Positions 898 through 20,612 of a DNA stretch of 20,612 nucleotides are shown here, one piece after another. Source of the stretch: Bilabrum cf. latius (taxonomy: Eukaryota); the NCBI GenBank assembly GCA_965178125.1, contig OZ237740.1:1488001-1508612 (forward strand). The letters run 5' to 3'. The notes under the pieces were generated by a model, which searched no databases, was not told where the DNA came from, and worked only from the letters and a program-made list of their open reading frames with translations. Within the stretch, counting starts at the first letter, position 1; every line of letters starts with the position of its first letter. The translations under genes and the position numbers were made by a program.

Positions 898-2754
898 ATG
901 CAGCAAAGTGCCGCAAAGACAGTATGCACAGTTTGCAAACTTCATCCTAGCAAGTACAAGTGCCCGCGATGCTCCGTCCAGACGTGTTCTTTGGGCTGCG
1001 TCTTGAGCCACAAACAACAGACTGGCTGCAGCGGCAAGAAAGAAGCTGTTCCGTTCATTGCTGTCAAAGAGTATACCGACAAGAAATTCCACAGGGACTA
1101 TCATTTGTTAGAGTCTATGGCGCAAGCATCTGATGCTGCACGGCGGGATATTCGGCAGTATGGCACTCAAATCGGTGCGAGCCGGCAACGCGGACGGAAA
1201 AAGCAGCCAGAAACGTCAAAATGGAACGAATCACTGCAAATGGACGGGCTACAAAACTCCCCAAAGCTCCCTACTCTGCCAAGACCGCTGTATCGTCTCG
1301 TGATGGCAGCAAGACAACGGGGAATCGATCTGCGTCTCATGCCAAAGGGGATGGTGAAGAGGGATACGAATACAACGCGGTTGTGCTCGTCTCGAAGTTT
1401 GTGCGGTATATTGCCAAGTAGAGGATCTGTGCTGGCTCATAGGGTTGCCAACGGGAACAGACCCTCACCTGGGACGTCTGTCGTTGTTAGTCCAGCATAC
1501 GCAGCGGGGCGACTAGCGTACGGTCTGGTTGGGACGCAACCGACTGGCGTTTCGGAGTCAGATCAAAAGCGACGGCAGCCTAGCTCTATAGCACCTCACT
1601 CGCAGAGTGAAGCGATAGATCGATCACGAGCATCAAGGAGGCGGTCCAACCGGAAGCGGCGCCGCATCGAGGTCGAGACCCGCACGGTTGCAAGCACGGT
1701 CACACCGCAGTCTGGAGAAGAGTTGCGAGCAGAAAATGAAATAGAAGATCCACGAGAATCAAAGAAATCAAGAGTAGGGCAGCTGGAGAGCCAACCGGGC
1801 AGGTTGGTTGGGCCGAAGGATACCGCCGCAGACCAGCAGTCGGCTGGGCCGAAGGATACCGCCGCAGACCAGCAGTCGGCTGGGCCGAAGGATACCGCCG
1901 CAGACCAGCAGTCGGCTGGGCCGAAGGATACCGCCGCAGACCAGCAGTCGGCTGGGCCGAAGGATACCGCTGCAGTCAGGCAAACTCTTGAGTCTGGCAC
2001 ATCTTCCTAGGCTGCCGGGTAGGTGATATGCTGGAAAGTTGAGATCATTGTGCGCTTCGCTCTGAGCGAAACTCGAGGTGCGCCATCGAAGGGCACCCCC
2101 TCGCACGGCATGGCTCAAGTCAGCTCGATTCGAGTCGTGGAGGACCTGGTCCACGAGAATTGCACGCTGCTGGACCTACTAGCAGTCTGGGAGGAAGAGG
2201 TGCACCACCCGCGCTACGCTGCCCTGAGACCCATCTGGAAGCGAGGCAGGGCGCACGAAGCCAGAGAAACTTCGACCTAGGCAAGCAGCACCAGAGGCCC
2301 CACAATCGATCGAGTCAGCTCGGCCCGCGAAGGTACATGCTCAACGAATGGTCCTTCAGGCCACGATGGACCGCCAGCAGCTTCAAAGCGACCTCAGTTC
2401 GTGGCTCTAGTCTAGCGGCCGTTCAGGTACAAAGGCTCTACACAGTTCGTGGCGTTTCCGAGCCCGTCGATACCGCTGCGAAGCATGCTTCAGCACGAGG
2501 CGGTGCTAGAGCACCCCACTGTCCACCTCGTGTGTCTGCCGCCTGGAGATGACCCGCACGGGGCCATTGATGCTGCTACGAGTGCTGCATCTGGCATGTC
2601 GATGCCACCCAGCTAGACGAATGCCAGTGCGATGGATGCGCCAGAGCTGGCCGGCACCTCCCGCGCAGTTCTGACTGGCACTATTGACACGCTGGTACAG
2701 TAGCTAGTGCAGAGGTGTGCAGGTCCAGCTACTGCGGTTGCCCGAGGTACCTGA
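898..2754 (+). CDS. BCD1: Box C/D snoRNP assembly factor BCD1/ZNHIT6 (zf-HIT), about 618 aa when 6 TAGs are read as sense
   Basis: N-terminal zf-HIT CTVC..KYKCPRC...TCSLGCV..HK..TGCSG, then DYHLLE and AARQRGIDLRLMPKGM.KRDTNTT. The same frame continues past TAG 2008, 2020, 2278, 2413, 2614 and 2701 into the BCD1 motifs ICWKVEI, VHENCTLLDLL and LRSMLQHEAVLEHPTVHLV. First TAA/TGA is TGA 2752-2754. Confidence 0.9.
1810..1975 (+). repeat. 36-bp coding tandem repeat, 4 perfect copies plus a partial (GPKDTAADQQSA)
   Basis: gggccgaaggataccgccgcagaccagcagtcggct x4, then gggccgaaggataccgctgcag, within BCD1. Confidence 0.95.
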
Positions 2755-2790: not shown

Positions 2791-3914
2791 TTACAGCTTG
2801 GCGCGCGAGTGCAAGGGACGAGCCGTGCCTGCACCACTGCGCTCTTGAATGGCGCGAAAGGACACCTGTTTGCGGGTTGCTGCTCGCTGTGCCGCCGACC
2901 ATGCAGCTGCTTCCATGGACTCGCCGGAATCAAGGCGAGCGAGCAGGCACCCCATCTCAGCCCGTGCTACCTCTTGCACGCGGCTCGACCAGACCCCATT
3001 GACTGCATCGGCGCCTGCAGCTTTGCTTGCCTCGCCGGCAGGGCTCTCGGGGATCCTCGTGGTGGAGTCATCTCCAGCACTCCGCCTCGAGACGCCGCCT
3101 GATCGTAGCAGTGCCTTGCACAGCATGGCGCTCTTGGAGGCGTGCGGCGCTGCAAACATGCGCTCCAGCTGCTCCAGCGCGACCCCGAGGCAGTGCTTGG
3201 CCGGCACTTCGGCGGGGATCACCTCAGTCACCAGGCCCCAGGCTTGCGCAGTCTCTGCAGAGATGCACCTGCCGCAAAACAGGAGCTGAAACGACCTCTG
3301 GTGTCCCTGCGCATCAAAATTGTTGCAATGAGCGGCAATGCCAGTGGTGGCATGCGGGCTGGTGCTGGCAGGCTGCAGGCAGGATCGGATCGACACACTA
3401 CAATTTGACGCATGCGTTTGGGCTTGGTCGTGCGTCTCACAATAGCAGCCGGCAGCAACATAGATGAGCCCAGCTCTGGCACTATGGCCAGCTCGCGGAA
3501 TGGTGCTCGGAAAGATGCCCTTGCCGAAGCGTACACCAGGTCTGCCAGCAGCATGAGGGTAAGGCCTGCACCTATCGCAGGGCCGTGGACCACGGCAACG
3601 ACTGGAACTCGTAACTGAGCCAGCGCCGCCGTCAATTGGTATGCCCCTGCTTGGTCTGGTGACTTTGGAGGCTCATCGGCAGCCGCGACGTCAGCCCCAG
3701 CAGTGAAGTACGGCGACCTTGGATCTGAGCACAGCACCAGTGCGTCGCAATTCCCATTCGCTTCATCGCATAGAGTAGCCAGCTATTTGAACGATCTTCC
3801 GTCGATACTATTGTATCTATCCACTTTTGATATCACGATCACTCGAAACCGCAACGTTGTCTCGCTTGCATTCTGGAACTCATGATCAAAAAATGATATG
3901 GAGGGCGTTGCCAT
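2791..3914 (-). CDS. Crotonase-family enoyl-CoA isomerase/hydratase (ECI2-like), peroxisomal PTS1 -AKL; exons 3914-3441 and 3306-2791, about 329 aa
   Basis: ATG 3914. Motifs YNSIDGRSFK[TAG 3785-3783]LATLCDEA, YFTAGADV, PVVAVVHGPAIGAGLTLMLLADLVYAS, FRAPFRELAIVPELGSSMLLP. Intron GTGAGA(3440)...GCGCAG(3307) joins LLPAAI|GHQRSFQLLFCGRCISAETAQAWGLVTEV. Ends SRAKL-TAA. Confidence 0.9.
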
Positions 3915-4185
3915 AGACAGAATAATCGGCCAATGGAGCCTTATGAGACGCGGTGTTGCATTTGCGGCTGCTTGACCGGTTCTAACCTCATCTCAGCTTG
4001 CGGAAATCTGCAATTGGCCATTGCAAGGCGAACCACTCAAAGACCAAACCCGGCCCGAGCTGCTCAGTCATGATGGTCTGTAGCTCTTATATTCGTCTCG
4101 TGTTGCCGTGATTTGGGCGTCAGTATCTATCTCGTCGGCTGGCATCATCACATCGAATCACAAGGCAAGCCCGACCTCCCAGACC

Positions 4186-6183
4186 ATGGCAGGTGCACTG
4201 TGGGCCTACTTTGATAATTGTTATGGTGTTGATGACAACAAATAGGGAGCTCAATCTGGTGACTAGGTAAACGCTGACGTATTCGCATCAGTTGAAGCCT
4301 GGGAAAGCGCTCTGCCAGGCCAGAGCAGTCGAGAGAGTATGCTTCCAACGGGAAACCGATTGTCTAGAAACCGTGCAAAGTTGCAGGAAATGTTGCTTCT
4401 GGAGTCTCGCAAATCAGAGAGCAGGCAGCTTCAGCAAGCAATGCTTTAGTCGCGTCACGAATAGGAACAAAGGCTTCTTGACAGCAAGATACAAGGGAAA
4501 TGGCGTTCAAACCGGGCCCATGCCTAGATTGCGGCAGCTTCATTTCGAGCCGAGCATGGCTCGTCGCTGTCCTCGAGTGAGCTTGCGGTTGAACGGCATA
4601 GAGCCGTTGGTGCGAGCTCGATGTGTGGCTTCCTGAGCGAGATGGACAAGCTTGAGGACGGATTCGTTTCTAGGCAGGGTTATACGCATGGTGCAGATGG
4701 GATCATTCGGCTGTCTCGCGGGTACAGGAAGTATGTCACGTCTGTACGAGGACGTTTGCTGGAGCATCTCGATTCCAACCGGCACCAGCGTCCCGGGAAA
4801 GACGTTGGAAATGAACCACCAACAGAAGTCGCAACAAGTGAGCGAGGTATTATCGTGAGCGTTAGATCGGCTGGCATGAAGCTAGCTGCGACCAAGGCGG
4901 ACAAACAAGGAGGTGGCATGAACAAGGCTAGGCTACCTGCGACCAAGGCGGACGGACAAGGAGGTGGCACGAAGAAGGCCATGAGGCCTGCAACCAAGGC
5001 TGCTAACAAATCAAGGCCTCCCTCTACAACGAAGGGCCTTGATGTTGATGTTGATGAAATGAAAGTCAAAGTTAATGCCGATGATTCGGACTGCAGGGGC
5101 AGCACCGGCCTGAATAGATATAGGCCATCTCCGCCCTCCCCTACTAGCCGCAAGCTTCAGCAGCAGCAGATAAGATCAACTAAATGGTGGCACCTGCATG
5201 CACTAGATGTCGGCGCTAAGAGGCATACTACCCAATCGGGCCGGCATAGGCGGACGTCCGGTGCCAGGAACGATTTTCAGCCGGACATCCTGATCACGAC
5301 CTTGGAAGGGGTTGAGGGACGGGCGGGCAGACCTGGTGCGCTACCGGTCGTGCGCCCAGATCGTGGCCGCGAGGCAACACCGACCTACAGACCTTTGAGG
5401 GACACCGGGTCAGAGACAATGCGCAAACTTGATGGTGACAGGAAGTTGCCGATTCTGTCTAATTGTTCAGACAGAGCTGGAGGGACTGGGCCATCTATGC
5501 CGACTAGTGCACATCCGCAGGACAAATTGGAGATGTGCGGCCTTCTTTCGCACAGGGGGTTCCGGTGGATGCGTCTGCGACAAGCCGGCTCGGTGCGCGC
5601 CCAGCCCAAGACCAGCGCTGGTGCTAGTGCTGGATCGCCGTCGCCAGGGACGGTTTCAGCGCCAGTGGCTACGACCAGGCAACCTTCACTGCCACTGCCA
5701 GCGCTAGCTGCGCGAGGGAAATCGGGACTTGATGCATCGTTGGCTGACCCTGCACAGTCCGCAGAAGCGCAGGATGATCTACCGGTAGAAGCACCCACTT
5801 CAAGCCGTGGGAGAGCATCGTTCTCTTCTCCTGGCACGGCGCGATCAAGTACCCCGTTTATGGAGGGGTTTCTAGACAAGCATGGTAAACAACGGAATGG
5901 GGGTCCGGTGCGTGCAATGACGACGGTGCGCCGAGGCTTGCGCTTGTCGCAAACATCCCCGAGGGCCCAGGGCATGAGTTTTCCAATGGGCTAGCACCAG
6001 AGGAGAAGACAGCACCAGCGGCCGCAGTGGTCACCGGTCACTGCCGAACAGGCAAAATCTTGGTCGGTCAAGCAACGGCGACAGGAGCTGGCACTGGGGT
6101 GTGTAAGTGGTGAGGTCGTGTCTACGACTGACGCTGCTAAGCCTACTTATGTCACTCGTAGGTAGGGCGGAGGACATGCTTAA
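4186..6183 (+). CDS. Hypothetical protein, about 665 aa with TAG as sense; N-terminal coiled-coil-like segment then low complexity; 3' end uncertain
   Basis: Frame is free of TAA/TGA from 3976 to TAA 6181 and contains TAG at 4243, 4264, 4447, 4462, 4525, 5992 and 6163. First ATG is 4186 (accATGg). A possible intron GTAAGT(6103)...CGTAG(6161) would move the stop to TGA 6321-6323. No family recognised. Confidence 0.65.
4888..5001 (+). repeat. Degenerate 51-bp coding repeat (ATKADKQGGGMNKARLP / ATKADGQGGGTKKAMRP / ATKA)
   Basis: gcgaccaaggcggac units start at 4888 and 4939, and gcaaccaaggct at 4990. Confidence 0.85.
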
Positions 6184-6511: not shown

Positions 6512-7503
6512 ATGGATGGTGTTGGAAAGTCAATGATGAGATCCCTCGGTCGGAAAACAAATGAAGGAGCAGGTAGTGCAGTGTCGTCCTTCGCTCTCAA
6601 GCAGTTGGAGAAATTTGGTTGGAAGTCGGGAATGGGGCTTGGTAAGGAAAAATAGGGCAGAAAAGAGCACGTGCGTGTGAAAAAGAAGGATGATAACACT
6701 GGGGTGAGGTTTGTAGCAGCTATGCAACTGCAATTTCCCGTGTTCGTCATGGTTGCCCGCTTCCAACACAGTTGGTGTGCCCGTCACTTTACTTTTCCCC
6801 ACGACAGATTGGAGCAGATGCTGCAAAAGCTAGTTAGATGGCATCGCAGTGGTGGTGGTCGTCGCACTCAGCTCCAAGCGTGAAGGCTGACGCTTCTTTG
6901 CTCTCCTCGAGTGCGCCGAGCAGCAAAGATGCGCTCAGCAGCTCCAAACTAGACCTTGATACTAATAATACTAGACCATCCAAGTCGATAGGTAGCGATG
7001 GCCGTAGTCGCAGCCGTAGCGACAGCGACAGCGATAGCGACAGCGATAGCGACAGCGACAGCGATGGCGGTGGTGCCCCAGGTGTCATTGGCTGGGCAGG
7101 GTAGGCACCCCCTTCGGACGCAGAATTATTTCGAATGTGCGGGGGCAAGCGACTTGGAATGCGAGCAAGGTCCTCATAGCAAGGCAAGTGGTTGAGGGTA
7201 GAGGGAGACGTGCTGGAGGGGCGGCTTTCGAAGGAGATGGGCCAAAAACGGCGGAGGACGCAGGATTCTGCAGACGTAGTCGAATCGTCGGACAGGGCCA
7301 CTATGAAGGAACCATCAGCAGCGAGCGCATCAAAGAAGCCAAGAGTTGACGAAGCAGAAGTCGCACGCTCAGTCAAGGCTACTGGCTCCATGGATCAAAG
7401 GGGTGGTAGTGCATCGGGGGGAAAGAGCAAAAAACGTGCCACCAAGAAAGCCAAGAAGGAGAAGAAGGCCAAAAAAGACAGGAAGACTGCAACGTCGACG
7501 TGA
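6512..7503 (+). CDS. G-patch domain protein (GPATCH4/PINX1-like); exons 6512-6703 and 6808-7503, about 295 aa
   Basis: G-patch SFALKQLEKFGWKSGMGLGKEK[TAG 6653]GRKEHVRVKKKDDNTG|IGA across intron GTGAGG(6704)...GACAG(6807). Then a WW motif, an SD tract, SDAELFRMCGGKRLGMRARSS[TAG 7177]QGKW and a lysine-rich tail. Other TAGs at 6835 and 7102. Stop TGA 7501. Confidence 0.88.
7018..7065 (+). repeat. (AGCGAY)8 hexamer microsatellite encoding (SD)8
   Basis: agcgac/agcgat run within the G-patch gene. Confidence 0.9.
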
Positions 7504-7859: not shown

Positions 7860-10800
7860 ATGCCAGCGAGCACCTTTCTCTCAATTTTGCATGCCATTGC
7901 AAGCAACGATAGCATTGGCATCGTACAGTTTGGGTCGGGCGGCTCTGGTCTCATAATTACGCATGCCAAGATGTTCGAGCAGGCAGTGCTGCCGGCCAAC
8001 TTCTCGACAACGAAATTTGCTAGCTTCTTGCGATCGCTGAGCTACTACGGTGTAAGACACAACGCCGAATGGTAAAATGTAATTCGATGAGTTGTTTCGA
8101 TTTAAAGCAAGTCATTGCTGATCACTAGGCAGTTCCGAGCAGTTCTGATGATTCTCGGCTTTTACTGCACTCGTCAAGTGTTCCCAGAAGCCAACCAGTA
8201 CCGCAGTTTCGACGCGTAAAAAGCAAAGTATTTGATACAGAGAGAGGTACTCGAGATAGGCATGTGGAGTGGTCGCACGACGTGAGCCAAGACTGAGTGA
8301 TTTGGGGAGGCGAGATAGCCCCAACAGTAGGACCGCCTCTCATCCTGCATTGGAACCACTGCTCGCAGAAATTTGTTGCCAACCACCCTGAGCTGGTTAT
8401 CGGTCTGAAACGAGCCGGTCGTGAACCAAAATCTCGGCGAAATCCGGAGGGCCGAGCAAGGAACCGCGGGGCTGCTAGCCAGCAGGTAAGCCCAGGGGGC
8501 AACTCTGTGGCCGGGGCCGCGGGAAGCGCCGCTGGTGGGCTTGGGGGTAAATCTAGTCAACAGGCTGCCGCGGCAACGTCAAAGCCGCTGCGGGACGCAC
8601 CAGCACGAAGCCAGCCAACAGCTGCGCGAGGCGCCCGACGGTCATCCCGGGCGCGACGGGCCCCGAAAGCAGCCTACGAAGAAGTGAGAATCGGCTGTTA
8701 GCCATGATTTCATGCCGTCGTCAATATAGAACTCTTCATTACCCCACCTTCCCTCAGCAAGTTGCCCCTACTCCGCAGTTGCATTCGCGTGGACCGACAG
8801 TGACAGGGCATCCAGCGGCTGGCTCGGGTTCTCGCCCGAGCCCGAACGAGAGAGGGGCAATGGGCACCATCCCATGCGTGCACAATGGACTAGTGGATGC
8901 CAGCCAGGGCTCCTTTCTACCCGCAGTAGCATCGTCACAGTCTATGCAGGTGCGCATGAGCATGCCCCCTCCACGGCAAGACGCGGCACCGTTTGTGAAT
9001 GCAGCGGGTGAAAAGCACCATGAGTCGCAGCAGAGCGTGGCAGATGCGATGCTTGATAGTTACTAGATGTATAAGGACATCCGAGTGAGGTCAACTTCAA
9101 TGCAGGCACCAGGAGCAGCTGGCGGGTGGTCCACCCTGAGGCAGGACGCAGCAGAGCGGTGGCAGCTGCACCAGAACTCACGGGCGGGAGGGCACGGCAT
9201 GCTAGGGCAAGCCTGGCCAGCCAATATGCACTCTGAACGTGGGCCAACCATAAACGTAGCCCAAGAGGGTGATGGGATGTCTATCCTGTCAAGTCCTGCG
9301 GATGCGCGGCCTCCCACCTCCTGGGGCGGCTCGTCATCGTCGGCACTCTCGGCTGCATCTAGGTGGGTGCACTTGCATGGGTCTGTAAATTCTGCCGGGG
9401 ATAGTCGACCTTCAGGGTTGCAGTCGATCGTGCCGCCACCTCCAGTGGACACAGCAGTGGCTGGAGGCATACCGGTGAGTGCAATAACGGTGCCAGTTGG
9501 GCAGGACCTTCGTGGCATGCGAGGGGCAAGCCCACGTGGCGGCACCGTGCAGCAGGACGAAGGGGTCCTGGGTTACGAAAGTAGCGAGGACGTGGCCAAG
9601 ACGCTGGCGTCTATGAGTTCACCCTCTCAATCAGGCCGATACAGCCGCGGGAGCTCACGAGGCAACCGCCGGGGGAGGTTCGTGGCGGCAAGTCGAAGAG
9701 CTAGCCTCGCCGAAATGCAGCAAAGCCCTCTGGCAGGTGCTGTGCGGGGTTTCGAGGCTCCACAGACCGGGCAGTCTTTTCCGCCAGCCTCGTGGTCTTT
9801 AACCAGTGGCTCTGCACACCAAACCGACGATTCGAAGCGTCGATCAAGCTCGAGGTATGACTCAGAGACGAACCCGACTCAACTCGGGTTGTCCTCTCGG
9901 ATAAGCTCCACGCACCGGGGATCGGGCAAGGCTGCCGGGTCTCGGAGTGGAACGGACATCGGCGTGTCCAATGACCAGAGCAACACAGCCAGTGCGATTC
10001 AACGCGACACGTGGTCAACAGGCTCGGGCTCAGAGCGAATGACAGACAGGGCGCTTCCACCATCGCCACAAGGCAACGCTTAGGCTGAATTACCGGACCA
10101 CAGCGGTGAGATGGGCGGTGATACCACCCGCTCCGGGTACCAGATAACGCCTAGCAGTATCACTGGTGTTGGGAAGCAGCAGGATGTGCTGGCTTGGCCC
10201 TCTGGGCATCCTTGGACGCTGCATCGGAAGGTGTCGACTGAGCCTGCAGCGCTTCGTCGGGTGCATTTTCGTGTGCCAAGGCTTGGCGAGGCGCAGAGAT
10301 CAGGGTATAAACGACCGAGAGCTGAAAATGGGGACGTTTCTGGCGAGGGGCAAATGCAAAAACGTGCTCGAACAGAGGTCAATGCAAGCCGCGGCATGGG
10401 TTCTGCGGGGTCGCAAGCAACGTCGCCGAGCAGCAGCACTGGTGTACAGTCTGCAGTCCCATTTGGAGGGCCAACCAGCAGGAACAACGAATCGCGGGCT
10501 GATCAGGCCAACCGCAATCGAATTCGTCCCCTACAGTCCGATGGGCCCTCCGCTGCTGAAGTTGTCCAGCTCGAGCACGTCGGACACCCAGGAGCTTCTC
10601 GGAGGTCCAGCGGATCAGGCCCCTCCGTCGCTTGGTCCTTCGACGAATCAGGCTCGGCCCTCTGGACACGCCGCAATGCTAGCCGGAAATCGCCCAATCT
10701 AGCCCGGCCTGCTGCTGCAGGGTAGTCCCTAGGTGCGTGCAGCAGCGATGGCAGCATTACGACCATGGGCGTGTCCCCCCCCCCGTCCGGGTGGCAGCTG

Positions 10801-11838
10801 GGCCAAGCCATTCCCGGGGGCGTGCAGCATCGCCTTGATGCTGCTTCGTTAATGCAGTCTGCTAAATCGGCTGGCACCCCTCCGGGTGGCCTTATGAACG
10901 GTGCTGCTAGATCCATGCTCTCTCGAGCAGGAGGGTTTGACAGAATCGCAGTCTACCACGGGTCTGCATCTGCCCAGCAGCCCGCTGTTCCGAGCTTTTA
11001 GCCTGTGCCATAGCCACAAGCGGGTAGTCTACACCATCCATAGTATTCGCATCGAGCTTAGCGGTATAGCGCTATGATGACTGCAGGCCGGTCGCCGACG
11101 GTGACAGCTTCGCGTCGGTCCTGGGACTCGGGTGGGCCTGCAATGCAAGCCTCGGTTCGCACGCAGGCAGGTAGCTCTGGACCATATGGTCCTGATAGGC
11201 ATTCCGGAGAAGCCTTCTCTTTTGATACCTCCCTCTAGGACGCAGAGATACAGCCTGGCGGCTCGTCGCTCGCCCCACGGCCAGCAACCTACTTACCAGA
11301 AGTGGACCGTCTGTCGGCTGCAGCAGCCCAGGTGATTCGTGTTCGGTAGCGCATGCAATCCATGGCCACTACTAGCTATGAGAACGAGCAAGGTGGCAGC
11401 GAGGCAGCAAGTGGAGAGTTGGGGTAGGATACGAATACCCTTGGTAGGAGCAGCCAGCGGGGCACACGAGGCATCGCGCCGCACCAGAGTATGCTCGGGA
11501 TTCAAGGTTCCTCCGGGGACCATTCTGGTAGAAGTTCACAATCTGCTGCAACGGTTCCGCCGACAGTGTCCTCGGATCACTTCCGCTTGGCCCGAGGTGG
11601 GCCGCCCTCACTGGCTGCTCGCACCACCGAGACTGTGGGCGGTGCGCAACCACCGAGCATACCGAACGGGACTCCTGTGGTGGAGCCGGCTTCAGCTGTT
11701 CAGAATTTAGCCGAGGTGCTTCGTGAAACCCTGGGTCCAGAAGTGGCCGCCAGTCTGGCCCAATAGCTTGCTGACTCCTCCTCGGTAAATGAAAGCGTCG
11801 GCTCAGCGGGCAATGGCGCGCGTGAGAGGCGCGAATGA
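7860..11838 (+). CDS. HSF-type DNA-binding transcription factor with a very long disordered C-terminus; exons 7860-8051, 8207-8281, 8369-8683, 8758-11838, about 1220 aa; start uncertain
   Basis: Spliced domain reads STFLSILHAI...FEQAVLPANFSTTKFASFLRSLSYYG|FRRV...VEWSHD|KFVANHPELVIGLKR, the HSF DBD pattern. Introns 8052-8206, 8282-8368 and 8684-8757 are all GT...CAG. The last exon is a single 3081-nt frame with 11 TAGs and no TAA/TGA until TGA 11836. Confidence 0.85.
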
Positions 11839-11912
11839 CGCTCAAAGCTCAGTGAGTGACACTCAAATAGACCAGCTGATGCAGGGAAAATTTTTCCGGG
11901 CATTCAATCAGA

Positions 11913-12525
11913 TTAAACCTCCTGGGGGGACGGAGCCAGAGCAAGCCCAAACACCGTGCATATGCACTCAACATACCCATTGTCGAGGGTAAGTTTGCAC
12001 AAACCTGCAAAATTTGAAGATCATATAGCAAGTAGAAGAAACTAAAGGCTGTAAGTGGCATGCCGTGCCAAGAGCTGAAACGCGCTCACCATCCTTGTCC
12101 CTGTCCCAATACGCGGCTGCCGCCGTATGCAAGCCCGCTCCTACCTTTTGCTGCAAGATGCATGTCACCACATACTTAAATTTCTTTTGTTGCTGTTGCA
12201 AACCCTTGAGGCAGTGTTCAATGATCTGATTGGACCAGAGATTGACCTTGTCTGCCTAAAACGTCGATTCTTTAAGGGTAGCCTTGAGTGCCTGCGTATA
12301 GACTCGATTCGTAAGATTCAACCATCGGTACTGTGTTCATATGAAGGAGTTATCGAATTCGAACAACCAAACTCACATCTCTGACCACGCGTTCGACATC
12401 GTCTACTACAAATTCCTCCTGCGAACACAACAACATACCGATTGAGACCTCGCACTGTCAATCTGCTGCATCTAAGGTATGACAAGTTGGTACATTTTAC
12501 TCACTGCATCTGCACCCATTGCCAT
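11913..12525 (-). CDS. DYNLT1: Dynein light chain Tctex-1 type; exons 12525-12505, 12418-12377, 12291-12090, 12004-11913, 118 aa
   Basis: MAMGADA|EEFVVDDVERVVRD|ALKATLKESTF[TAG 12258-12256]ADKVNLWSNQIIEHCLKGLQQQQKKFKYVVTCILQQKVGAGLHTAAAAYWDRDKDG|LCKLTLDNGYVECICTVFGLALAPSPQEV-TAA. Three GTGAG...GCAG introns of 85-86 nt. Confidence 0.95.
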
Positions 12526-12754: not shown

Positions 12755-15700
12755 ATGGGGAACTCTCCCGCAGTCATCGCCTTGGTGATCGCAATTTTGT
12801 CCGGTTCGGAATCGTTTGCTCGCACCCGAGTTGCGATAATTGATACAGGGGTGTCTAAATGTATGGTGTGTCGTCAGAGTAGTCAGGAAGAAGACTAGTG
12901 CAGACATTGCATTTCGACCCTAGAACCGACGCACAGTATTGTCACCGAGCACGTGGCCGACTTGTCAGATTGGGTCGATCGCCATGGACATGGCTCGTTT
13001 GTCGCAGATTAGTTGTTGAGATTTGCGCCAACACGTCCACAAGTTATCTCCATCAAGGCGTTCGATATTGCTGGACAGACCCGCGCCACTTGGATGGTTT
13101 CTGCAATCAAGAAAGCGATTGAAATCAAGGCTCATATCATTCTCCTGAGTAATGGAGCTGCCGAACAGGAAGATGGGGCAGTCGCAGCAGCGATAACACA
13201 GGCCATTCGGTACGGTGCAGCGGTGTTGGCAGCAGCCGGCAACGATGGAGCGTCTCCAGGAACAGTCCTATCCCCTGCGATATTACCGGGTGTTGTTTCT
13301 GTCACTGCGTGTAGTTTCTATCATGCGCATCACCGTCATCCTGATGCGATGCCTGGCCCAGGCTCTAGGTGCCCACTGGAGCTGCTGGAGTTCAGCTCCA
13401 GGGGCCCTGCCGTCTCAGCTGGAGGCCAGCTACGATTCGTAAGCGGTGCCTCGTTGCCTGGATTCAAACTGGCCGGCGTAGGACTGCTTGGTTAGCCGAT
13501 GTACAAGTCAGGGACCAGCGTGGCTGTGCCGCTGATGGCTGCCCTGGTGGCATCTGGGACGCAGTGGGCGAGCGACTTGGTGTGGTGGCAAGCAGAGTGC
13601 GCGCAGGGGAATTTAACGGAATGCTAGGGTGGCCCCACGTATCACCGAGCTGTTCCACAATCGCTTCCACGCTGGGTGCAGCTGGCTGCCTAGCAGCATG
13701 TACGAGCGTGGGCCCGGCTGGGCTCGCTGTGTAATGCTACTTCGTCGCAGTCGTGGTGGGATGAGCTGCGTGAGGCCTGGTCTCTCAAATGGCAGCTGAT
13801 ACGGTCCCACCATAAAGGTGGCATCAGTAATGATTGGGACAATGTGATATCCGCAACAACCCCGAGCAGCATCAAAAAGAGTGGTGGGTAGAGTCCAGCA
13901 TAGACGGGAGTAAAGTGCAGCGCCCTGCACTCTTTGTGCCATATGCTCAGCGCTCATTCTGCCCATTCCATCGATGCCAGTGGCGTGATTCGACCCACTA
14001 AAGGCTTGACACTGGACATGGCCGAGCTCACGCGGGATGAGGCTGCTTGGTTGCATCAGCTCAAAGTGGGTCGTCAGTGCGGGCCATCATCAAGCTCCGG
14101 CCGGTCATCCATTCGTTCATCAGTGCTTTGCAACTCGATTTTGTTTCCTGGGTCTCTGCCGTTGGAATTCTCAGTCGATTTCGTCGGAACTGGGTCAATT
14201 GCCTTCCAGACGGGCAGCAATGCTCTCGCGCAGTGGTCCCCTGTTCGTTGCTGGACTGGGGCCATTGCACTCGTGCCGTGCTCTGAGCGCCAGCTGCTGG
14301 CTGTCTCATAGAGACTCGAGGTGCGAGCATCTCTTGCGGCACAGAGCACAACTTTTAGTGCAGCGCAAGACCTGACCATTCGGATTCAAGTGAAGCCAGC
14401 GGATAGCGCCGCCCTGGCTGCTGGGGAACCACTCGTCTTAGAGGGTGAAGCTGTCGTTGATGTCCCACTCTGCAGACTTGTACCGGACCTAGCCGTCGTT
14501 GCCCTCGAGGCGGCAGCTTAGCACCGATGCAACGGTTGCTCGACCCGCCGATTCGGAGCGTCCGCCCATGTATTTCCAGCCCATATCGCATGGGCCGTTG
14601 GAAACGAATCGAGCTCCGAACATGAAGCGGTGGAATACTGCCAGCACCCCAGTGGGATATCAACAACCACAGTGAAGACCCGATTCAGGTTTCACTCCCG
14701 AAAACCACCGTAGCGGTTCCGTATGGCCGTAGACACGCATCATTCTGCAGCGTTTCCTCGAGCAAAGAGCTACCGAGACGATCTTCGAGCTGCATCGACA
14801 GCAATGGACGCTGCGGGAGACTCAATTCGCACCAACTTTGGCCAACTGCTACAGGTGGCTGGCACGCAGGGTGTTATCCTGGACGAGGTCCACACGCACT
14901 TATACACTGTAAACCTTTGCCAGTACGGTGCAATCATCATTCCCGATACAGAGGTCCCGTTTTCAAGTGCCGAGAAGTAGCACCTGTGGGGAGCAGTTTG
15001 GCCGACCATCTTTACGAGCTAGACACAAACGAGCGATCGTGGCAGCCAAGCATCAGAACAACCGGATGAGTGCAGGCCGACTAGTGTCATCGTACTAGCT
15101 GAGTGGGATGACAAGCGTCTGTATCCTGGTGGGCCGATATGGAACCAGAACGAGCAGACTTGGTGGACTTACAGTTCCCCGGGAACCCAATCCGGCGTAG
15201 TTGATGCGATTTTGGAGCCTGCACAAGTGCGTATGGTTCCTAGATCTGCATCTGGAGTGGTAAGGTAGTCTCTCAGGTCGAGCGAGTTGGTGCTCCCCTC
15301 CTGCCATGACCCCATAATGGCTGAACTACGATCTGCTTCACCCATTGGAGGGCTGCCTCGCGGAGCCCTCATGCAGTTCGCGTGGATGCGCGATGACGTT
15401 GTGGATGGCAGTGCTCGTTCGCACGATGGAACTGCTTCAACTACAAGCCAATAGCTCGGGCCGTTTGCTGATGAGCTCCAGGTGCCAGCCGATCGGTCGG
15501 GCCTTTCGCCATTCGGCTAGGCTGGGTGTGAGCAGCAGCTCTAGTGTTCCAAATGGGGCGTGGTGATCGCTGCTCTTGATGAAGAAACCTCATTCCGTGC
15601 TGCGACTGGGTTTTGTAGGTACCGGAACGCCGTCAATATTGGTGCAGTGAGTGCACGTCCGGAACCCTGCGCAACTGATACATCTAGTCGAGTCCCTGGA

Positions 15701-16240
15701 ATACCGTCAACGAGCAACGCTACCCACGTATCAGCGGCACGCGCGCAGACTGCTGGCCGGATCGTTGTGTTCAGTGATACCGCTTGTTTCGATTCTGATT
15801 ACAGATGGCCGTCGAGCTCGGTTGATCCTGATGCACCACGAGCATCCAGACTGTTCTGTCGCGGACTACTGCAGCATATGATCCGGTATGCAGCATTCGG
15901 GCGCAGGCAAGATGCCGCAGTGTTCGCGCAGAGTGGGCCACTTTCGCACCATTTCATCGATCCAATCATACTGCAGTAGGCTGCTGCTGAGAAAACATCG
16001 GCAGACAGCAGGTCGGTAGCCAGAGCAACTCCTCACGCCCACAGCAGGCTTCGGTCGTCTCCTCGCAGCACAACGCCCCGCACGGAGGGTCCCCGAGCTG
16101 ACAGTGTTGGTGTTTGGCTTGGGCCTGAGCCGCGGGTCGGGCAATGCGAGCAAGAAGATGTTCAAACGGTATCGGCTGATATTTCGCTGGCAATAGCGGA
16201 TGTATTGGGTGCCTGCGATTAGGCCAGCGGCCCTTGCTAA
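12755..16240 (+). CDS. Site-1 protease (MBTPS1/SKI-1)-like subtilase (S8), apparently single exon, about 1161 aa with 18 TAGs read as sense
   Basis: Signal-peptide-like MGNSPAVIALVIAILSGSESFA. Catalytic motifs VAIIDTG (D 12842), HGHGSFVA (H 12989), AAGNDG, FSSRG and SGTSVAVP (S 13517). S1P-type C-terminal motifs RDDLR...D..GDSIRTNF, QYGAIIIPDTE, VIVLAEW...TWW and GRIVVFSDTACFD. All in one frame ending TAA 16238. Confidence 0.88.
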
Positions 16241-16334: not shown

Positions 16335-17477
16335 TCACACGCCGCCGCCGCTCGCGGCCGCGCCGCTCCAACTGCCATCTGCCCGCGGGCCCGCCCCCCC
16401 CATGGCGCGAGCACCTGCGGCACCCAGAGACCCACGCGAGTAGCTCGCGCTCAGTCCACCGCGAGAATAGCCTGCACTTCCTGCGGAGACATCGTCAACT
16501 CCTCGTGACGCAGAGGCTCCGGTGTCCCCAGGCCCGCCATACCCCCCGAGCCCCGCTTCCCTGCCTCTTGCCGGCGGGTAGCCATAGCTGTCTCCAGCGC
16601 CTGGTGCTGCCGCTGCAGGAAGACCAGACGGAGCGCCCATCAAGGCAGGCGCAGACGCGCCATGCTCACCGGCGTAAGACGGCCCACCCATCCCTCCGGG
16701 TGCGTCGTACCCACCCTCATACCCACCCCCCATCATGTCCCCATCGTACCCACCTGCAGTGCAGAACGTGAGGTCGAACAATAGGACACAATTATTTTGA
16801 AAACTCACGCGCAAAACTAGCAAGATGACTTTTGCAATTAATCTCTGACAGCACTTACCTGTAGCATAGCCCTCTGCACTGGAGTGCCTGCCGCCCATGG
16901 CACTTGAAGCGCCTCTTCGCGAAGCTGTAGGCTTGAACTCAGAAATCGTCTCCAGATACTTCTCGCTCTTGATCCGGTCTTCCTCCCACTTCCAGTGCGA
17001 GTACACTGGTTGCACTGTGCGCAGTCTCCGGAGTATTTTTTGATTCTCCTGCGTGATTCTCTGCAGCTCCTTCTTCCGAGAGCTGCGGTTCATCGACCGG
17101 CCGTACTTATGTGACTTTGAGACCATATCAAGGGAGCCCTTCCGCATAATTTCGCTCATTTTTGCCAGGAGCAAACGGTTTTCGTGTTCAATCTTGGCGT
17201 ACCTCTCTGCGGTACTAAATTACTACGAGAAATATGGGACATGAGCGTGCATTGACTTTTCGTGCCGGAAACGGCTTATCGCGAGCTCGATCTCACCCTC
17301 CATCATTTGTTCACGTTTTAAATTCCGCTGCATGTGCTTCGGTCTCTTCGGGGCCCGATTGTCCACCGAAGCCTTCATGTTGCGGAGCCGTTGGCGATGG
17401 CGCCGTTGCTTCTCGGCTATCTCGCGCTCATACAGCAGCTTGCTCGACTTTGGCTCCGCTTTGCGACCGAAGTACAT
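16335..17477 (-). CDS. CFAP97/Hemingway (KIAA1430)-domain flagellar protein with a Gly-rich tail; exons 17477-17297, 17206-16859, 16753-16335, about 315 aa
   Basis: HRQRLRNMKASVDNRAP...KREQMME|ERYAKIEHENRLLLAKMSEI...RSMNRSSRKKELQRITQENQKILRRLRTVQPVYSHWKWEED. Introns GTGAGA...CCGCAG (90 nt) and GTAAGT...CTGCAG (105 nt). Stop TGA. No TAG. Confidence 0.88.
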
Positions 17478-17663: not shown

Positions 17664-19190
17664 ATGCAAGAGGAAAAGAAGTTATTGCCTAAGCGGACAA
17701 GCCGTGGAAGGCGCAACACAGCACTAGTTGGAGAAGCAGCAGATGCTGACAAGAGCTTTTGGGACCAGGATGCCTTCAAGGAGGATTCTGGCGATAGTGA
17801 GTTCGACTCAACTGATGCATCTTCGGACAGTGAGGACAGTGATATAGATAACGATGAGGGCGACGCCGCCAATGATGACGGTGAAGAAGCGGACGATGAT
17901 CTCGAGGCCGGCCAGCAAGCGAAAAGGGTATACCTTGACCCTGCCCTTCGCCGAAAGATGGGCATAAAAGGGTTGATGTCCGGAGTTCTGGGAGCATAGG
18001 ATAGTGACACCTCTGGATTTGACGCGAAGCCGATCATATTTGATGCCTCAGTGGAACTTGACAGTCGAGCACGAGAGTATCTCGATAGAGTATTGCGGCG
18101 ATAGGCAGAATTGCAGTCTCTGGAAGCAAAAAATCGCGGTGCGCAATATTTTCCTGACATAGACTCAGCCAGTGATGATGGCTCGGGTTCGACTTTGGCA
18201 GACCAGCTCAACCTTGAGTCCGAACCAGAACTTCCCACTAGAGAGAGCGGACCTCTCGACCCGACAGTGGTATTGCGAAGTGCTGCGGAAACAGCCATGG
18301 CATCGTTGGAGTCGCTTCAGTCTATGACAGCTGCTGCAGCAGATGGAAGTGCTCATCGCAGCAAAGGTGTGGGACGTGGACGTGATCGGCTCGCTCACAC
18401 ATCCGGTGCCACTGCAGATAGCCACCAGTCACTGGGTGTTGCTCCACTTCTGTTAGGCAAGAGCATGCACAGAGCAAGCACATTTCTAGTGACTACAGCT
18501 GCAGCTGGAGGTGTGGCTGGCCTGCTGGATGCATTTGTAGATGACTCTGCTTCCATCGGAGCTGTAGGCTAGTCAGATTTCACCTCGGTTACCCGATCCA
18601 GCTTGAGCTCGGCGGCGCAAAGACAGCTAGCATCTGTGCCATTCGTGTCTCCTGCTGCAGCTCTCGGTGCGTCTGCAGGGGATGCATACCGTGCTGCGAG
18701 GCGGGAAGTGGAGCGCGCAGTGGAGACAGCACAACCGGGGCTCGAGCTGGGCAACAAAAGACAGCGGGGTGCAGCGGCTGCGGGTCGGGGCAGAGGCAGG
18801 GGAAGAGGGAGAGGAAGGGGGAGAGGAAGGGGTAGAGGTAGGGGTGGTGGAGGACGGGGAGGGGGTGGTTCAGCAAGCAGCTACTAGGTGCCTGCACAGA
18901 GAGCAACAAAGATTCGACGCATTTCCACGATTCGTCAGACTGCTGGGACGGCTTCTGCCTCGGCAGCTGGGGCGCCGTCAGGCACTCGATCGGAAATTGT
19001 GCTCCTTGACCAGCTTGGGCAGGTCCCACGCACCCTGCAGGCTGTTGCACCTCCCCCTATGCCACGAGTGTCCAGGCCTGCGGTCGCTGCTTCCCAGGAG
19101 CAGCCTGGGGACAGCGTGCAGAACTGGTTCGTGGTTCGTGGGTCATCGGACACGGCTGCGTTCATGCAGCCCATTCGAAAATTAAAGTGA
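17664..19190 (+). CDS. VPS72: VPS72/YL1/Swc2 (SWR1/SRCAP H2A.Z chaperone subunit), about 508 aa with 4 TAGs read as sense
   Basis: LPKRTSRGRRNTALVGEAADADKSFWDQDAFKEDSGDSEF...DSDIDNDE matches the YL1 N-terminus, followed by RVYLDP and VLRSAAETAMASLESL. Frame runs through TAG 17997, 18102, 18570 and 18885 to TGA 19188. A possible short intron 19187-19236 would move the stop to 19249. Confidence 0.8.
18783..18869 (+). repeat. Gly-Arg (GR)n / RGG coding tract
   Basis: GRGRGRGRGRGRGRGRGRGRGGGGRGGGG encoded with mixed codons within VPS72. Confidence 0.9.
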
Positions 19191-19687: not shown

Positions 19688-20612
19688 TTAGGGTTAGGGT
19701 TAGGGTTAGGGTTAGGGTTAGGGTTAGGGTTAGGGTTAGGGTTAGGGTTAGGGTTAGGGTTAGGGTTAGGGTTAGGGTTAGGGTTAGGGTTAGGGTTAGG
19801 GTTAGGGTTAGGGTTAGGGTTAGGGTTAGGGTTAGGGTTAGGGTTAGGGTTAGGGTTAGGGTTAGGGTTAGGGTTAGGGTTAGGGTTAGGGTTAGGGTTA
19901 GGGTTAGGGTTAGGGTTAGGGTTAGGGTTAGGGTTAGGGTTAGGGTTAGGGTTAGGGTTAGGGTTAGGGTTAGGGTTAGGGTTAGGGTTAGGGTTAGGGT
20001 TAGGGTTAGGGTTAGGGTTAGGGTTAGGGTTAGGGTTAGGGTTAGGGTTAGGGTTAGGGTTAGGGTTAGGGTTAGGGTTAGGGTTAGGGTTAGGGTTAGG
20101 GTTAGGGTTAGGGTTAGGGTTAGGGTTAGGGTTAGGGTTAGGGTTAGGGTTAGGGTTAGGGTTAGGGTTAGGGTTAGGGTTAGGGTTAGGGTTAGGGTTA
20201 GGGTTAGGGTTAGGGTTAGGGTTAGGGTTAGGGTTAGGGTTAGGGTTAGGGTTAGGGTTAGGGTTAGGGTTAGGGTTAGGGTTAGGGTTAGGGTTAGGGT
20301 TAGGGTTAGGGTTAGGGTTAGGGTTAGGGTTAGGGTTAGGGTTAGGGTTAGGGTTAGGGTTAGGGTTAGGGTTAGGGTTAGGGTTAGGGTTAGGGTTAGG
20401 GTTAGGGTTAGGGTTAGGGTTAGGGTTAGGGTTAGGGTTAGGGTTAGGGTTAGGGTTAGGGTTAGGGTTAGGGTTAGGGTTAGGGTTAGGGTTAGGGTTA
20501 GGGTTAGGGTTAGGGTTAGGGTTAGGGTTAGGGTTAGGGTTAGGGTTAGGGTTAGGGTTAGGGTTAGGGTTAGGGTTAGGGTTAGGGTTAGGGTTAGGGT
20601 TAGGGTTAGGGT
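19688..20612 (+). repeat. Telomere (TTAGGG)n, about 154 copies
   Basis: Uninterrupted TTAGGG array to the window end, G-rich strand running 5'->3' toward the terminus. Confidence 0.99.

What the first reader, a model, noticed from the sequence alone, without database searches (positions are those of the whole stretch)
6653..7179. TAG falls at conserved Gln positions of the G-patch protein, indicating TAG=Gln
Seen: GLGKEK-TAG-GRKEHVRV and GMRARSS-TAG-QGKW. Known: the G-patch consensus is GLGxxxQG (GLGKNEQG; PINX1 GLGAQEQG), so TAG 6653 occupies the Q. Supporting contexts elsewhere: LVQ*LVQ (2701), F*PVP*PQ (10999/11011), LAQ*LA (11764), ML*SRHE*EQ (4447/4462). One site is less clear: FVAD*LL (13010) aligns to a usually hydrophobic subtilase position. 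Gln is the best inference, Glu is less likely and Leu fits poorly.
Basis: partly seen in the sequence, partly recalled or inferred. Interest (0 to 1): 0.88.

Follow-up and report, generated by a model that had tools for sequence, protein, structure and literature searches.

The report
TAG read as glutamine in a eukaryote
In this chromosome-end piece of an unidentified eukaryote the usual stop codon TAG sits inside nearly every gene and is best read as glutamine, while TAA and TGA still end genes; this is a rare but already known kind of genetic-code change.

Summary

**TAG is a sense codon.**
- Both TAGs (6653, 7177) lie in frame in a G-patch gene, join(6512..6703, 6808..7503).
- Contigs of two spliced, RNA-like runs from two studies skip its 104-nt intron and keep every TAG unchanged.
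- In the seven + strand coding stretches the coding frame holds 50 TAG, 0 TAA and 0 TGA. The other two frames hold 43/57 TAG, 21/23 TAA and 55/115 TGA.

**TAG means Gln.**
- TAG 7177 sits in a column that is Q in 11 of 11 homologues.
- A syntenic metagenome relative (L001) also carries in-frame TAGs. In well-conserved contexts its partner of a TAG is Q (CAA/CAG) in 5 of 5 sites, in both directions.
- A goodness-of-fit test on 70 site-1-protease homologues fits Q (and K). It rejects L, E, S, Y and W.

**Caveats.**
That column is Q in L001 but D/N/T in six PINX1-like homologues.
- TAA and TGA remain stops.
- No tRNA(CUA), eRF1 or peptide evidence could be examined.
- The lineage is undetermined, but it is not ciliate-like.
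- UAG-only reassignment to Gln is known from Iotanema, Protocruzia and some phyllopharyngean ciliates, so this is a new member of a known kind.

The parts
6512..6703 (+). G-patch gene, exon 1 (64 codons); holds TAG 6653-6655
   Evidence: Pfam PF01585, E 4.7e-12, residues 25-64 = profile 2-41 of 45. 75% identical to exon 1 of L001, where the TAG column is CAA.
6704..6807 (+). Intron of the G-patch gene, 104 nt, GT..AG, phase 0
   Evidence: Skipped by one contig each in X6 and X7 (two studies), not in X1 or X5.
6808..7503 (+). G-patch gene, exon 2, ending in TGA 7501-7503; holds TAG 6835, 7102 and 7177
   Evidence: C-terminal motif ELF..CGG.RLGMRAR..Q.GK shared with 11 homologues. The TAG 7177 column is Q in 11 of 11. 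L001 has CAG, CAA and CAA opposite 6835, 7102 and 7177.
898..2754 (+). BCD1 / zf-HIT gene, 6 in-frame TAG (2008, 2020, 2278, 2413, 2614, 2701), terminator TGA
   Evidence: Pfam BCD1 2.8e-12 and zf-HIT 3.4e-9. TAG list.
3228..3992 (-). Enoyl-CoA hydratase/isomerase gene, 5' part, 1 in-frame TAG. The rest of the domain lies in ORF 2791-3672 in another frame.
   Evidence: Pfam ECH_1 6.9e-15. In solved homologues the column opposite the TAG varies: A, R, W, A, G.
3976..6183 (+). Gene of unknown family, 8 in-frame TAG, terminator TAA
   Evidence: ORF opens only with TAG as sense. Covered by RNA-like contigs 4050-6702 with 0 other letters. Orthologue in L001.
7860..11838 (+). HSF-type DNA-binding gene, join(7860..8051, 8207..8281, 8369..8683, 8779..11838), 11 in-frame TAG, terminator TGA
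   Evidence: Three GT..AG introns skipped in X6 and X7. The joined frame is open. Exon 1 matches Pfam HSF_DNA-bind, 1.1e-9.
11913..12525 (-). Tctex-type dynein light chain gene, four exons, 1 in-frame TAG (12258-12256), terminator TAA
   Evidence: Three CT..AC joints in X6/X7. Open joined frame of 117 aa. Pfam Tctex-1 7.2e-17. The TAG lies opposite CAA in L001, and an L001 TAG lies opposite window CAG. Q in fly and mammal chains, S in Chlamydomonas. L001 ends at the same place with TGA.
12755..16240 (+). Subtilase of the site-1-protease (MBTPS1) type, no intron, 18 in-frame TAG, terminator TAA
   Evidence: Pfam Peptidase_S8 5.1e-12 and MBTPS1_4th 2.4e-15. One RNA-like contig covers 12664-16245 with 0 other letters. 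Aligns over 1001 columns with L001, which also has 18 TAG.
16335..17206 (-). CFAP97/Hemingway gene, 3' exon, no TAG, terminator TGA; intron 17207-17296
   Evidence: Pfam Hmw_CFAP97 3.7e-15. Joint in X6 and X7.
17664..19190 (+). YL1 (VPS72/Swc2-like) gene, 4 in-frame TAG, terminator TGA
   Evidence: Pfam YL1 8.8e-8. TAG list.
19688..20612 (+). Telomere, (TTAGGG) x 154, running to the end of the window

Best explanation
The window is the end of a nuclear chromosome of a eukaryote whose cytoplasmic translation reads UAG as glutamine and keeps UAA and UGA as terminators. The pattern is that of Iotanema spirale, and of NCBI table 15 (table number recalled).

**Shown here**
- TAG is an ordinary in-frame codon: about 11 per 1000 codons, and 19% of CAG+CAA+TAG. 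It occurs in 8 of 9 genes.
- It is present unchanged in spliced transcripts.
- Where its meaning can be read from relatives, it stands for Gln.

**Inferred, following Panek et al. 2017 (PMC5304391, section 9 read)**
- Decoding is by a tRNA-Gln with anticodon CUA, which cannot pair with UAA.
- An eRF1 with weakened recognition of UAG goes with it.

A divergent environmental relative (L001) shares the trait, so the reassignment predates their split.
For: **(1) Sense use**
- In 4623 codons of 8 coding stretches there are 51 TAG, 0 TAA and 0 TGA.
- In the seven + strand stretches TAG is as common in frame (50) as out of frame (43, 57). TAA and TGA are absent in frame.

**(2) Transcripts**
- Contigs of X6 and X7 (two studies) skip nine GT..AG introns.
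- They cover 4050-7582, 8369-12002 and 12664-16245 with 0 other letters, so there is no editing or splicing-out of TAG.

**(3) Invariant column**
- TAG 7177 faces Q in 11 of 11 homologues.

**(4) Orthologue pairs with L001**
- With flank identity at least 0.67, 5 of 5 partners of a TAG are Q, where Q makes up 6.4% of residues.
- With flank identity at least 0.5, 8 of 15 are Q.
- A BLOSUM62 likelihood puts Q first at all four thresholds. The runner-up trails by 2.2 to 5.5 log10 units.
- The relation is reciprocal: window TAG faces L001 CAA/CAG, and L001 TAG faces window CAG.

**(5) Tctex gene**
- The window TAG faces Q in fly and mammalian chains.

**(6) Site-1-protease alignment (70 homologues, 19 TAG columns)**
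- The score under Q is -2.26. True Q codons give -2.25, sd 1.19 (fraction 0.50).
- Fraction of 2000 subsamples of true codons scoring at or below the TAG columns: E 0.0015, S 0.002, R 0.02; L, Y, W, V, I, F, G, D, N, H, T, P, M and C all 0 of 2000.

**(7) TAA is a terminator**
- The Tctex gene ends with TAA exactly where L001 ends with TGA.
- The subtilase RNA-like contig stops 5 nt after its TAA.
Against: **Site-1-protease columns that do not look like Q**
- 13010: V/L/I in 60 of 67.
- 13901: E in 60 of 70, and E in the close fragment P0014.
- 14711: R in 60 of 70 and K in 7, with TAG kept in both the window and L001, in a well-aligned block.
- 13493: G in 45 of 70.

**Close fragments**
- P0015 (91% identical) has F opposite TAG 14978.
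- P0014 has H opposite 13889.
- None of the three TAG sites replaced in those fragments is Q.

**Other points**
- Over all 66 window-L001 pairs only 11 are Q (S 10, V 7, R 6).
- The column of 6653 holds no Q in six PINX1-like homologues.
- The fit test does not exclude K (0.58) or A (0.13); only the pair data and the invariant column do.
- The codon classifier cannot recover true CAA or CAG from that alignment (ranks 8 and 3), so it has no positive power for Q.
- No tRNA gene lies in the window or L001. No eRF1 and no peptide data were available.
- Only about 32 kb of two genomes was seen.
Confidence: 0.85

Rival explanations
1. TAG has two meanings. It is Gln inside genes but also a terminator near the 3' end of some mRNAs, as in the context-dependent codes of Condylostoma, karyorelicts and Amoebophrya sp. 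ex Karlodinium veneficum.
For: - Two of the three window genes whose terminators were examined and are TAA (the unknown gene and the subtilase) have a TAG six codons upstream of the TAA. BCD1 and the HSF-type gene have one 17 and 24 codons before their TGA.
- The subtilase RNA-like contig ends 5 nt after the TAA, which is 23 nt after that TAG, so the 3' UTR is very short either way.
Against: - At 11 TAG per 1000 codons, two of six genes with a TAG in the last six codons is only mildly unusual (about 0.07 by my rough estimate).
- L001 shows no such pattern: the last TAG lies 185, 74 and 12 codons from the terminator.
- Every gene has a TGA or TAA terminator. The Tctex terminator is confirmed by its orthologue.
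- A contig end is not a mapped poly(A) site.
Confidence: 0.08
2. TAG is a sense codon for another amino acid: Lys, Glu, Ser, Leu or Tyr. All except Lys are known meanings of reassigned UAG in other eukaryotes.
For: - Lys fits the site-1-protease test (0.58) and the R/K column at 14711.
- Glu fits 13901 and the D-rich column of 6653.
- Ser is the second commonest partner over all pairs, 10 of 66.
- UAG=Ser is reported for Scotinosphaera and UAG=Leu for a rhizarian (PMC11687900, passages read).
Against: - An invariant Q column, 11 of 11.
- 5 of 5 Q partners in conserved contexts.
- Likelihood relative to Q, in log10 units over the four thresholds: E -2.2 to -6.1, K -2.9 to -5.9; S -3.6 to -7.2; L is not among the eight best at any threshold.
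- E, S, L and Y are rejected by the fit test: 0.0015, 0.002, 0 and 0.
Confidence: 0.05
3. Both TAA and TAG encode Gln (the common UAR=Gln code, NCBI table 6), and TAA merely happens to be absent from these genes.
For: - UAG and UAA nearly always change together (PMC5304391, abstract).
- The genome is GC-rich, which would make TAA rare.
Against: - There are 0 TAA against 51 TAG in 4623 codons, although CAA:CAG is 77:138.
- TAA occurs 21 and 23 times in the two other frames of the same stretches.
- TAA ends the Tctex gene where L001 has TGA.
- TAA ends the subtilase ORF 5 nt before its RNA-like contig stops.
- Reading through the TAA would run the subtilase ORF into the convergent CFAP97 gene.
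Confidence: 0.02
4. The TAGs are not translated: the genes are pseudogenes, the TAGs are assembly errors, or they are removed by RNA editing or splicing.
For: None beyond the standard-code expectation.
Against: - There are 52-53 TAGs in 8 of 9 genes, against no TAA or TGA.
- The letters are identical in contigs of four runs from four studies.
- The spliced contigs keep the TAGs.
- Protein similarity to L001 continues across 18+18 TAGs over 1001 aligned columns.
Confidence: 0.005

Closest known systems
Iotanema spirale (Fornicata): UAG = Gln, UAA and UGA stops (Panek et al. 2017, PMC5304391; abstract and section 9 read)
   Same: The same code table. UAG is decoupled from UAA, and a tRNA-Gln(CUA) is predicted there as here.
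   Different: - Iotanema is known from a transcriptome of an anaerobic metamonad.
- Here there is genomic DNA of about 56% G+C with a TTAGGG telomere, introns of 85-155 nt and an enoyl-CoA hydratase gene.
- No relationship was tested. The eRF1 T32G change reported there could not be looked for.
Ciliates with UAG-only reassignment to Gln: Protocruzia tuzeti and two phyllopharyngean lineages (McGowan et al. 2024, PMC11687900; passages of the discussion read)
   Same: UAG goes to Gln while UAA is kept as a stop.
   Different: The window is not ciliate-like. It is a long chromosome with a TTAGGG telomere, and one DNA-run contig spans 3000-18773 across many genes. That ciliate macronuclear telomeres and base composition differ from this is recalled, not tested.
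UAR = Gln code (NCBI table 6): many ciliates, ulvophytes, hexamitids, Streblomastix, Amoeboaphelidium (listed in PMC11687900)
   Same: TAG means Gln.
   Different: TAA is a terminator here and never occurs in frame in 4623 codons.
Amoebophrya sp. ex Karlodinium veneficum: all three stop codons in frame, contextual termination (PMC12005148; passages read)
   Same: A non-ciliate protist with in-frame TAG thought to mean Gln, unedited in transcripts, and suppressor tRNAs in the genome.
   Different: There TAA and TGA are also in frame, only about half of the gene models are affected, and the genome is described as more AT-rich than other Amoebophrya genomes. Here only TAG is in frame, and it is in nearly every gene.
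PINX1 / Gno1 / PXR1-type G-patch proteins
   Same: An N-terminal G-patch, followed by a WW motif, an acidic Ser/Asp run, the C-terminal ELF..CGG.RLGMRAR..Q.GK motif and a Lys-rich tail. One homologue is named Pin2-interacting protein X1 by its source.
   Different: Function was not tested. Identity to named homologues is only 26-37%.

Membership tests
Nuclear code with UAG = Gln and UAA/UGA = stop (Iotanema type) | In-frame UAG in conserved, expressed protein-coding genes | tested here: met
   51 TAG in 4623 codons. 8 of 9 genes are affected. Spliced RNA-like contigs keep the TAGs.
Nuclear code with UAG = Gln and UAA/UGA = stop (Iotanema type) | Columns opposite UAG indicate glutamine | tested here: met
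   - Q in 11 of 11 at 7177.
- 5 of 5 Q in conserved orthologue contexts, with Q first in likelihood.
- The fit test is compatible with Q and rejects E, S, L and Y.
- Several single columns disagree.
Nuclear code with UAG = Gln and UAA/UGA = stop (Iotanema type) | UAA is not a sense codon and terminates genes | tested here: met
   0 of 4623 in-frame codons. The Tctex TAA stands where L001 has TGA. This covers the window only, not the whole genome.
Nuclear code with UAG = Gln and UAA/UGA = stop (Iotanema type) | UGA is not a sense codon and terminates genes | tested here: met
   0 of 4623 in frame. Four + strand genes and CFAP97 end in TGA.
Nuclear code with UAG = Gln and UAA/UGA = stop (Iotanema type) | Cognate tRNA-Gln with anticodon CUA | not testable with these tools
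   No whole genome is held. No tRNA in the window or L001.
Nuclear code with UAG = Gln and UAA/UGA = stop (Iotanema type) | eRF1 altered in stop-codon recognition motifs | not testable with these tools
   There is no eRF1 gene in the sequence available.
UAR = Gln code (NCBI table 6) | UAA used as a Gln codon alongside UAG | tested here: not met
   0 TAA against 51 TAG in frame. TAA terminates at least the Tctex gene.
Context-dependent stop/sense codes (Condylostoma, Amoebophrya sp. Kv) | The same codon both encodes an amino acid and terminates genes | tested here: inconclusive
   No gene needs TAG as its terminator. Two genes have a TAG six codons before their TAA, and one of them has a very short 3' end.
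G-patch domain proteins (PF01585) | Match to the G-patch profile above the curated cut-off, with the conserved glycines | tested here: met
   46.1 bits against a cut-off of 22. G36, W37, G40, G42, L43, G44, G49 and G64 are invariant in alignment A1.

The most novel reading that the evidence does not exclude
The window's organism and the organism behind metagenome contig L001 may belong to an undescribed, non-ciliate clade of flagellated eukaryotes. The two are syntenic, yet only about 29-55% identical in most proteins. In this clade UAG would have been reassigned to Gln while UAA stayed a terminator. That would be a further, independent and old decoupling of UAG from UAA, this time with genomic DNA in hand. 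The predicted tRNA-Gln(CUA) and the eRF1 changes could therefore be read directly, which Panek et al. 2017 could not do for Iotanema.
Probability: 0.4. Interest if true: 0.72.

Novelty: new member of a known kind. Interest (0 to 1): 0.62.

Why it matters
**Rarity.** Nuclear stop-codon reassignments are rare. Cases where UAG changes and UAA does not are a handful: a rhizarian (Leu), Iotanema, Protocruzia and some phyllopharyngean ciliates (Gln), and Scotinosphaera (Ser), as listed in PMC11687900. They bear on whether the two codons are mechanistically separable in eukaryotic termination.

**What a new case offers.** A further case in a GC-rich, intron-bearing, non-ciliate genome with public DNA and RNA data would allow three things:
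- direct identification of the suppressor tRNA and the eRF1 variant;
- a check of whether TAG ever terminates;
- dating of the change, because a divergent relative shares it.

**Practical consequence.** Any annotation of this genome with the standard code would truncate nearly every gene. The database proteins of its relatives (P0003, P0014, P0015, P0039) are such fragments; three of them stop where the window has a TAG and the fourth at L001's own TAG.

Tried and rejected

**Homologue searches that added little**
- G-patch exon 1 against longer proteins found nothing. The frequency of Q in the G-patch family at column 6653 therefore rests on 5 solved chains and 7 homologues. The Pfam consensus letter at that position was not seen.
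- The search for shorter fragments of the subtilase returned only P0014 and P0015, both from a contig of 1689 bases.

**Solved-structure searches**
- ECH and the L001 HSF exon showed variable columns opposite TAG.
- For YL1 and BCD1 none of the alignments shown covers a TAG.

**Other tools**
I did not resend it.
- No tRNA and no Rfam family in the window or L001.
- Earlier findings of the scan: nothing on this genome or its relatives.
- The look-up of sequencing runs: no RNA holder listed on record. X6 and X7 are called RNA-like here only because their contigs skip GT..AG introns.

**Lineage not determined**
- The best named site-1-protease hits are scattered: Salpingoeca, Andalucia and Diacronema.
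- The best named G-patch hits are from Blastocystis.
- I considered Amoebophrya. I dropped it because the published species uses all three stop codons and is AT-richer. This is no proof.

**Literature**
- Five searches listed no paper whose title or abstract describes a GC-rich non-ciliate with UAG-only Gln.
- Supplements were not consulted.
- Papers outside the library, such as the Scotinosphaera report, were not seen.
Full report
**What the window is.** The window has about 56% G+C. It ends in 154 perfect TTAGGG repeats (19688-20612), so it is the end of a eukaryotic nuclear chromosome. Genes run to within about 500 bases of the telomere.

**Reading TAG as sense opens long ORFs.**
- Under the standard code the longest ORF is 488 aa.
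- With TAG as sense, + strand ORFs of 619, 735, 1095, 1164 and 511 aa appear.
- Reading TAA as sense instead, with TAG and TGA kept as stops, produces no such long ORFs.

**The ORFs are real genes (Pfam).**

| Gene | Coordinates | In-frame TAG |
|---|---|---|
| BCD1/zf-HIT | 898-2754 | 6 |
| Enoyl-CoA hydratase | minus strand, 2791-3992 | 1 |
| Unknown family | 3976-6183 | 8 |
| G-patch | join(6512..6703, 6808..7503) | 4 |
| HSF-type DNA-binding | 7860-11838, four exons | 11 |
| Tctex dynein light chain | minus strand, 11913-12525 | 1 |
| Site-1-protease-type subtilase | 12755-16240 | 18 |
| CFAP97 | minus strand | 0 |
| YL1 | 17664-19190 | 4 |

**The observation.**
- Both belong to one gene, interrupted by a 104-nt GT..AG intron (6704-6807).

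**TAG is translated.**
- In 4623 codons of eight coding stretches there are 51 TAG, 0 TAA and 0 TGA. CAG occurs 138 times and CAA 77 times.
- In the seven + strand stretches TAG is as frequent in frame (50) as in the other two frames (43, 57). TAA (0 against 21, 23) and TGA (0 against 55, 115) are excluded from the coding frame.
- I laid four public runs on 3000-19300. X1 and X5 give long unspliced contigs identical to the window.
- X6 and X7 come from two further studies. Their contigs skip nine GT..AG or CT..AC introns, including the G-patch intron.
- Those contigs cover 4050-7582, 8369-12002 and 12664-16245 with 0 other letters. The TAGs are therefore present in spliced transcripts and are not edited.
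- The runs are labelled RNA only as a guess by the tool. The splice joints are my reason for calling them RNA-like.

**A relative with the same trait.**
- A search with exon 2 of the G-patch gene found 11 homologues.
- The best of them, P0003, lies on a metagenome contig of 11,895 bases (L001).
- L001 is syntenic with window ~3700-16200 and has 51% G+C.
- It also opens into long ORFs only when TAG is read through: ORFs with 12, 3, 14 and 18 TAGs.
- Orthologues are 29-55% identical. The exceptions are G-patch exon 1 (75%) and the Tctex exon (91%).

**What TAG means: evidence for Gln.**
- *Invariant column.* TAG 7177 (RARSS-TAG-QGKW) sits in a column that is Q in all 11 other sequences of alignment A2.
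- *Orthologue pairs.* Where at least 0.67 of the 12 flanking columns are identical, all 5 partners of a TAG are Q. Q makes up 6.4% of residues in such contexts.
- At a threshold of 0.5, 8 of 15 partners are Q. Over all 66 pairs Q is still the commonest: 11, then S 10 and V 7.
- The relation holds in both directions. Window TAGs 6653, 6835, 7102, 7177 and 12258 face CAA or CAG in L001. L001 TAGs face window CAG at 6847 and 12153.
- A BLOSUM62 likelihood ranks Q first at all four thresholds. The next candidates trail by 2.2 (E), 3.5 (E), 5.5 (R) and 3.8 (S) log10 units.
- *Distant homologues.* The Tctex TAG faces Q in the fly chain and in three mammalian chains (not independent of one another), and S in Chlamydomonas.

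**What TAG means: evidence that looks contrary.** The subtilase is very divergent from its family; its best distant hit has E 8e-15. I aligned 70 homologues holding both the catalytic and the fourth domain with the window and L001 proteins. Several TAG columns are conserved for other residues:
- 13010: V/L/I in 60 of 67.
- 13901: E in 60 of 70.
- 14711: R in 60 and K in 7 of 70. It is TAG in both genomes, in a cleanly aligned block.
- 13493: G in 45 of 70.

Fragments of a closer relative (P0014 84% and P0015 91% identical) show E, H and F opposite three window TAGs. Those fragments, and P0039, end where the window has TAGs 14309, 14519 and 15020.

**Weighing the contrary evidence.**
- I scored every codon of the two genes against the column profiles. 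The true amino acid comes out first for 41 of 53 codons.
- The true amino acid does not come out first for CAA (rank 8) or CAG (rank 3). Gln is simply not conserved in this family.
- I then asked, for each amino acid, whether the 19 usable TAG columns score as 19 randomly drawn columns of that amino acid's own codons do.
- Q fits exactly: -2.26 observed against a mean of -2.25, sd 1.19. K fits (0.58) and A marginally (0.13).
- R (0.02), E (0.0015) and S (0.002) do not fit. L, Y, W, V, I, F, G, D, N, H, T, P, M and C never reach the observed value in 2000 draws.
- So this protein cannot prove Q, but it excludes the reported alternatives Leu, Glu, Ser and Tyr. K is excluded by the pair data and the invariant column.

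- Column 6653 of the G-patch is Q in L001 (CAA).
- It is D, D, D, N, D, T in the six PINX1-like homologues that contain the domain.
- It is M, Q, Q, E, E in five solved G-patch proteins.
- It is compatible with Q but not diagnostic. The claim that the Pfam consensus has Q there could not be checked. The tool gives only the matched range, residues 25-64 = profile 2-41.

**TAA and TGA.**
- Four + strand genes end in TGA (BCD1, G-patch, HSF-type, YL1), as does CFAP97.
- Three genes end in TAA: the unknown gene and the subtilase and Tctex.
- The ECH ORF 2791-3672 also ends at a TAA, but that gene model was not resolved.
- The Tctex TAA stands exactly where L001 has TGA.
- The subtilase RNA-like contig ends 5 nt after its TAA. 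Read-through would run into the convergent CFAP97 gene.
- The code is therefore UAG = Gln with UAA and UGA as stops, within the limits of about 4600 codons.

**An open point.**
- The unknown gene and the subtilase each have a TAG six codons before their TAA.
- Whether TAG can also terminate in some contexts cannot be decided here. L001 shows no such pattern.

**Mechanism (inferred).**
- Because UAA is not read, the decoding tRNA should have anticodon CUA, most simply derived from tRNA-Gln(CUG). The eRF1 should recognise UAG poorly. This is the argument of Panek et al. 2017 (PMC5304391, section 9 read).
- Neither component could be examined. No genome is held. No tRNA or Rfam family lies in the window or L001.

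**Comparison with what is known.**
- UAG-only reassignment is documented for a rhizarian (Leu), Iotanema spirale (Gln), Scotinosphaera (Ser), Protocruzia tuzeti (Gln) and phyllopharyngean ciliates (PMC11687900, discussion passages).
- Amoebophrya sp. ex K. veneficum has all three stop codons in frame (PMC12005148, passages).
- This window has the Iotanema-type table. It sits in a GC-rich genome with TTAGGG telomeres, introns of 85-155 nt, and flagellar genes (CFAP97, Tctex).
- The lineage could not be placed.
- Five literature searches listed no paper whose title or abstract describes such an organism. The library is incomplete and supplements were not seen.

**Verdict.**
- This is a new member of a known kind of code variant.
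- Confidence that TAG is a sense codon is about 0.99. Confidence that it means Gln with TAA and TGA as the terminators is about 0.85.

Noticed in passing
window 19688-20612 and 19488-19629: A perfect (TTAGGG) x 154 telomere runs to the window end. It is preceded by 3.3 copies of a 43-nt subtelomeric repeat. The last gene (YL1) ends only about 500 bases before the telomere.
   Followed up: partly
window 16220-16245 and 6163-6183: The subtilase and the unknown gene each have an in-frame TAG six codons before their TAA terminator. The subtilase RNA-like contig stops 5 nt after the TAA, about 30 nt from the start of the contig of the convergent CFAP97 gene. This may be a very short 3' UTR, or a hint that TAG can terminate near mRNA ends.
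   Followed up: partly
window 14711 and L001 10520: This is the only TAG shared by both genomes. It lies in a cleanly aligned site-1-protease column that is R in 60 and K in 7 of 70 homologues (PPR..R.LWDQ.HS..YP block). Under TAG=Gln both lineages keep Q at a conserved basic position.
   Followed up: partly
window 11913-12525 (minus strand) and L001 ~7650-8100: The Tctex gene region is unusually conserved at the DNA level between the two genomes: 73.5% over 351 nt, and 91% protein identity in one exon. Neighbouring orthologues are only about 29-55% identical. Its 3' end overlaps, convergently, the 3' end of the HSF-type gene in one RNA-like contig.
   Followed up: no
window 3228-3992 and 2791-3672 (minus strand): The enoyl-CoA hydratase domain is split over two frames. 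One RNA-like contig of X6 runs unspliced through 3000-3928, and X7 has a loose end at 3259. The gene model was not resolved: it could be an intron, a retained intron or a frameshift.
   Followed up: no
window 1809-1975, 7018-7064, 18801-18845: There are in-frame coding tandem repeats. A 36-nt unit occurs 4.6 times (GPKDTAADQQSA) in the BCD1 gene. A Ser-Asp hexanucleotide run lies in the G-patch gene. An Arg-Gly run lies in YL1 and draws spurious matches to Sm D1 tails.
   Followed up: no
proteins P0003, P0014, P0015, P0039: Database proteins of relatives are standard-code fragments. P0014, P0015 and P0039 end where the window has TAG. P0003 ends at L001's own TAG. Public gene calls for this group are truncated by the unrecognised code.
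   Followed up: partly
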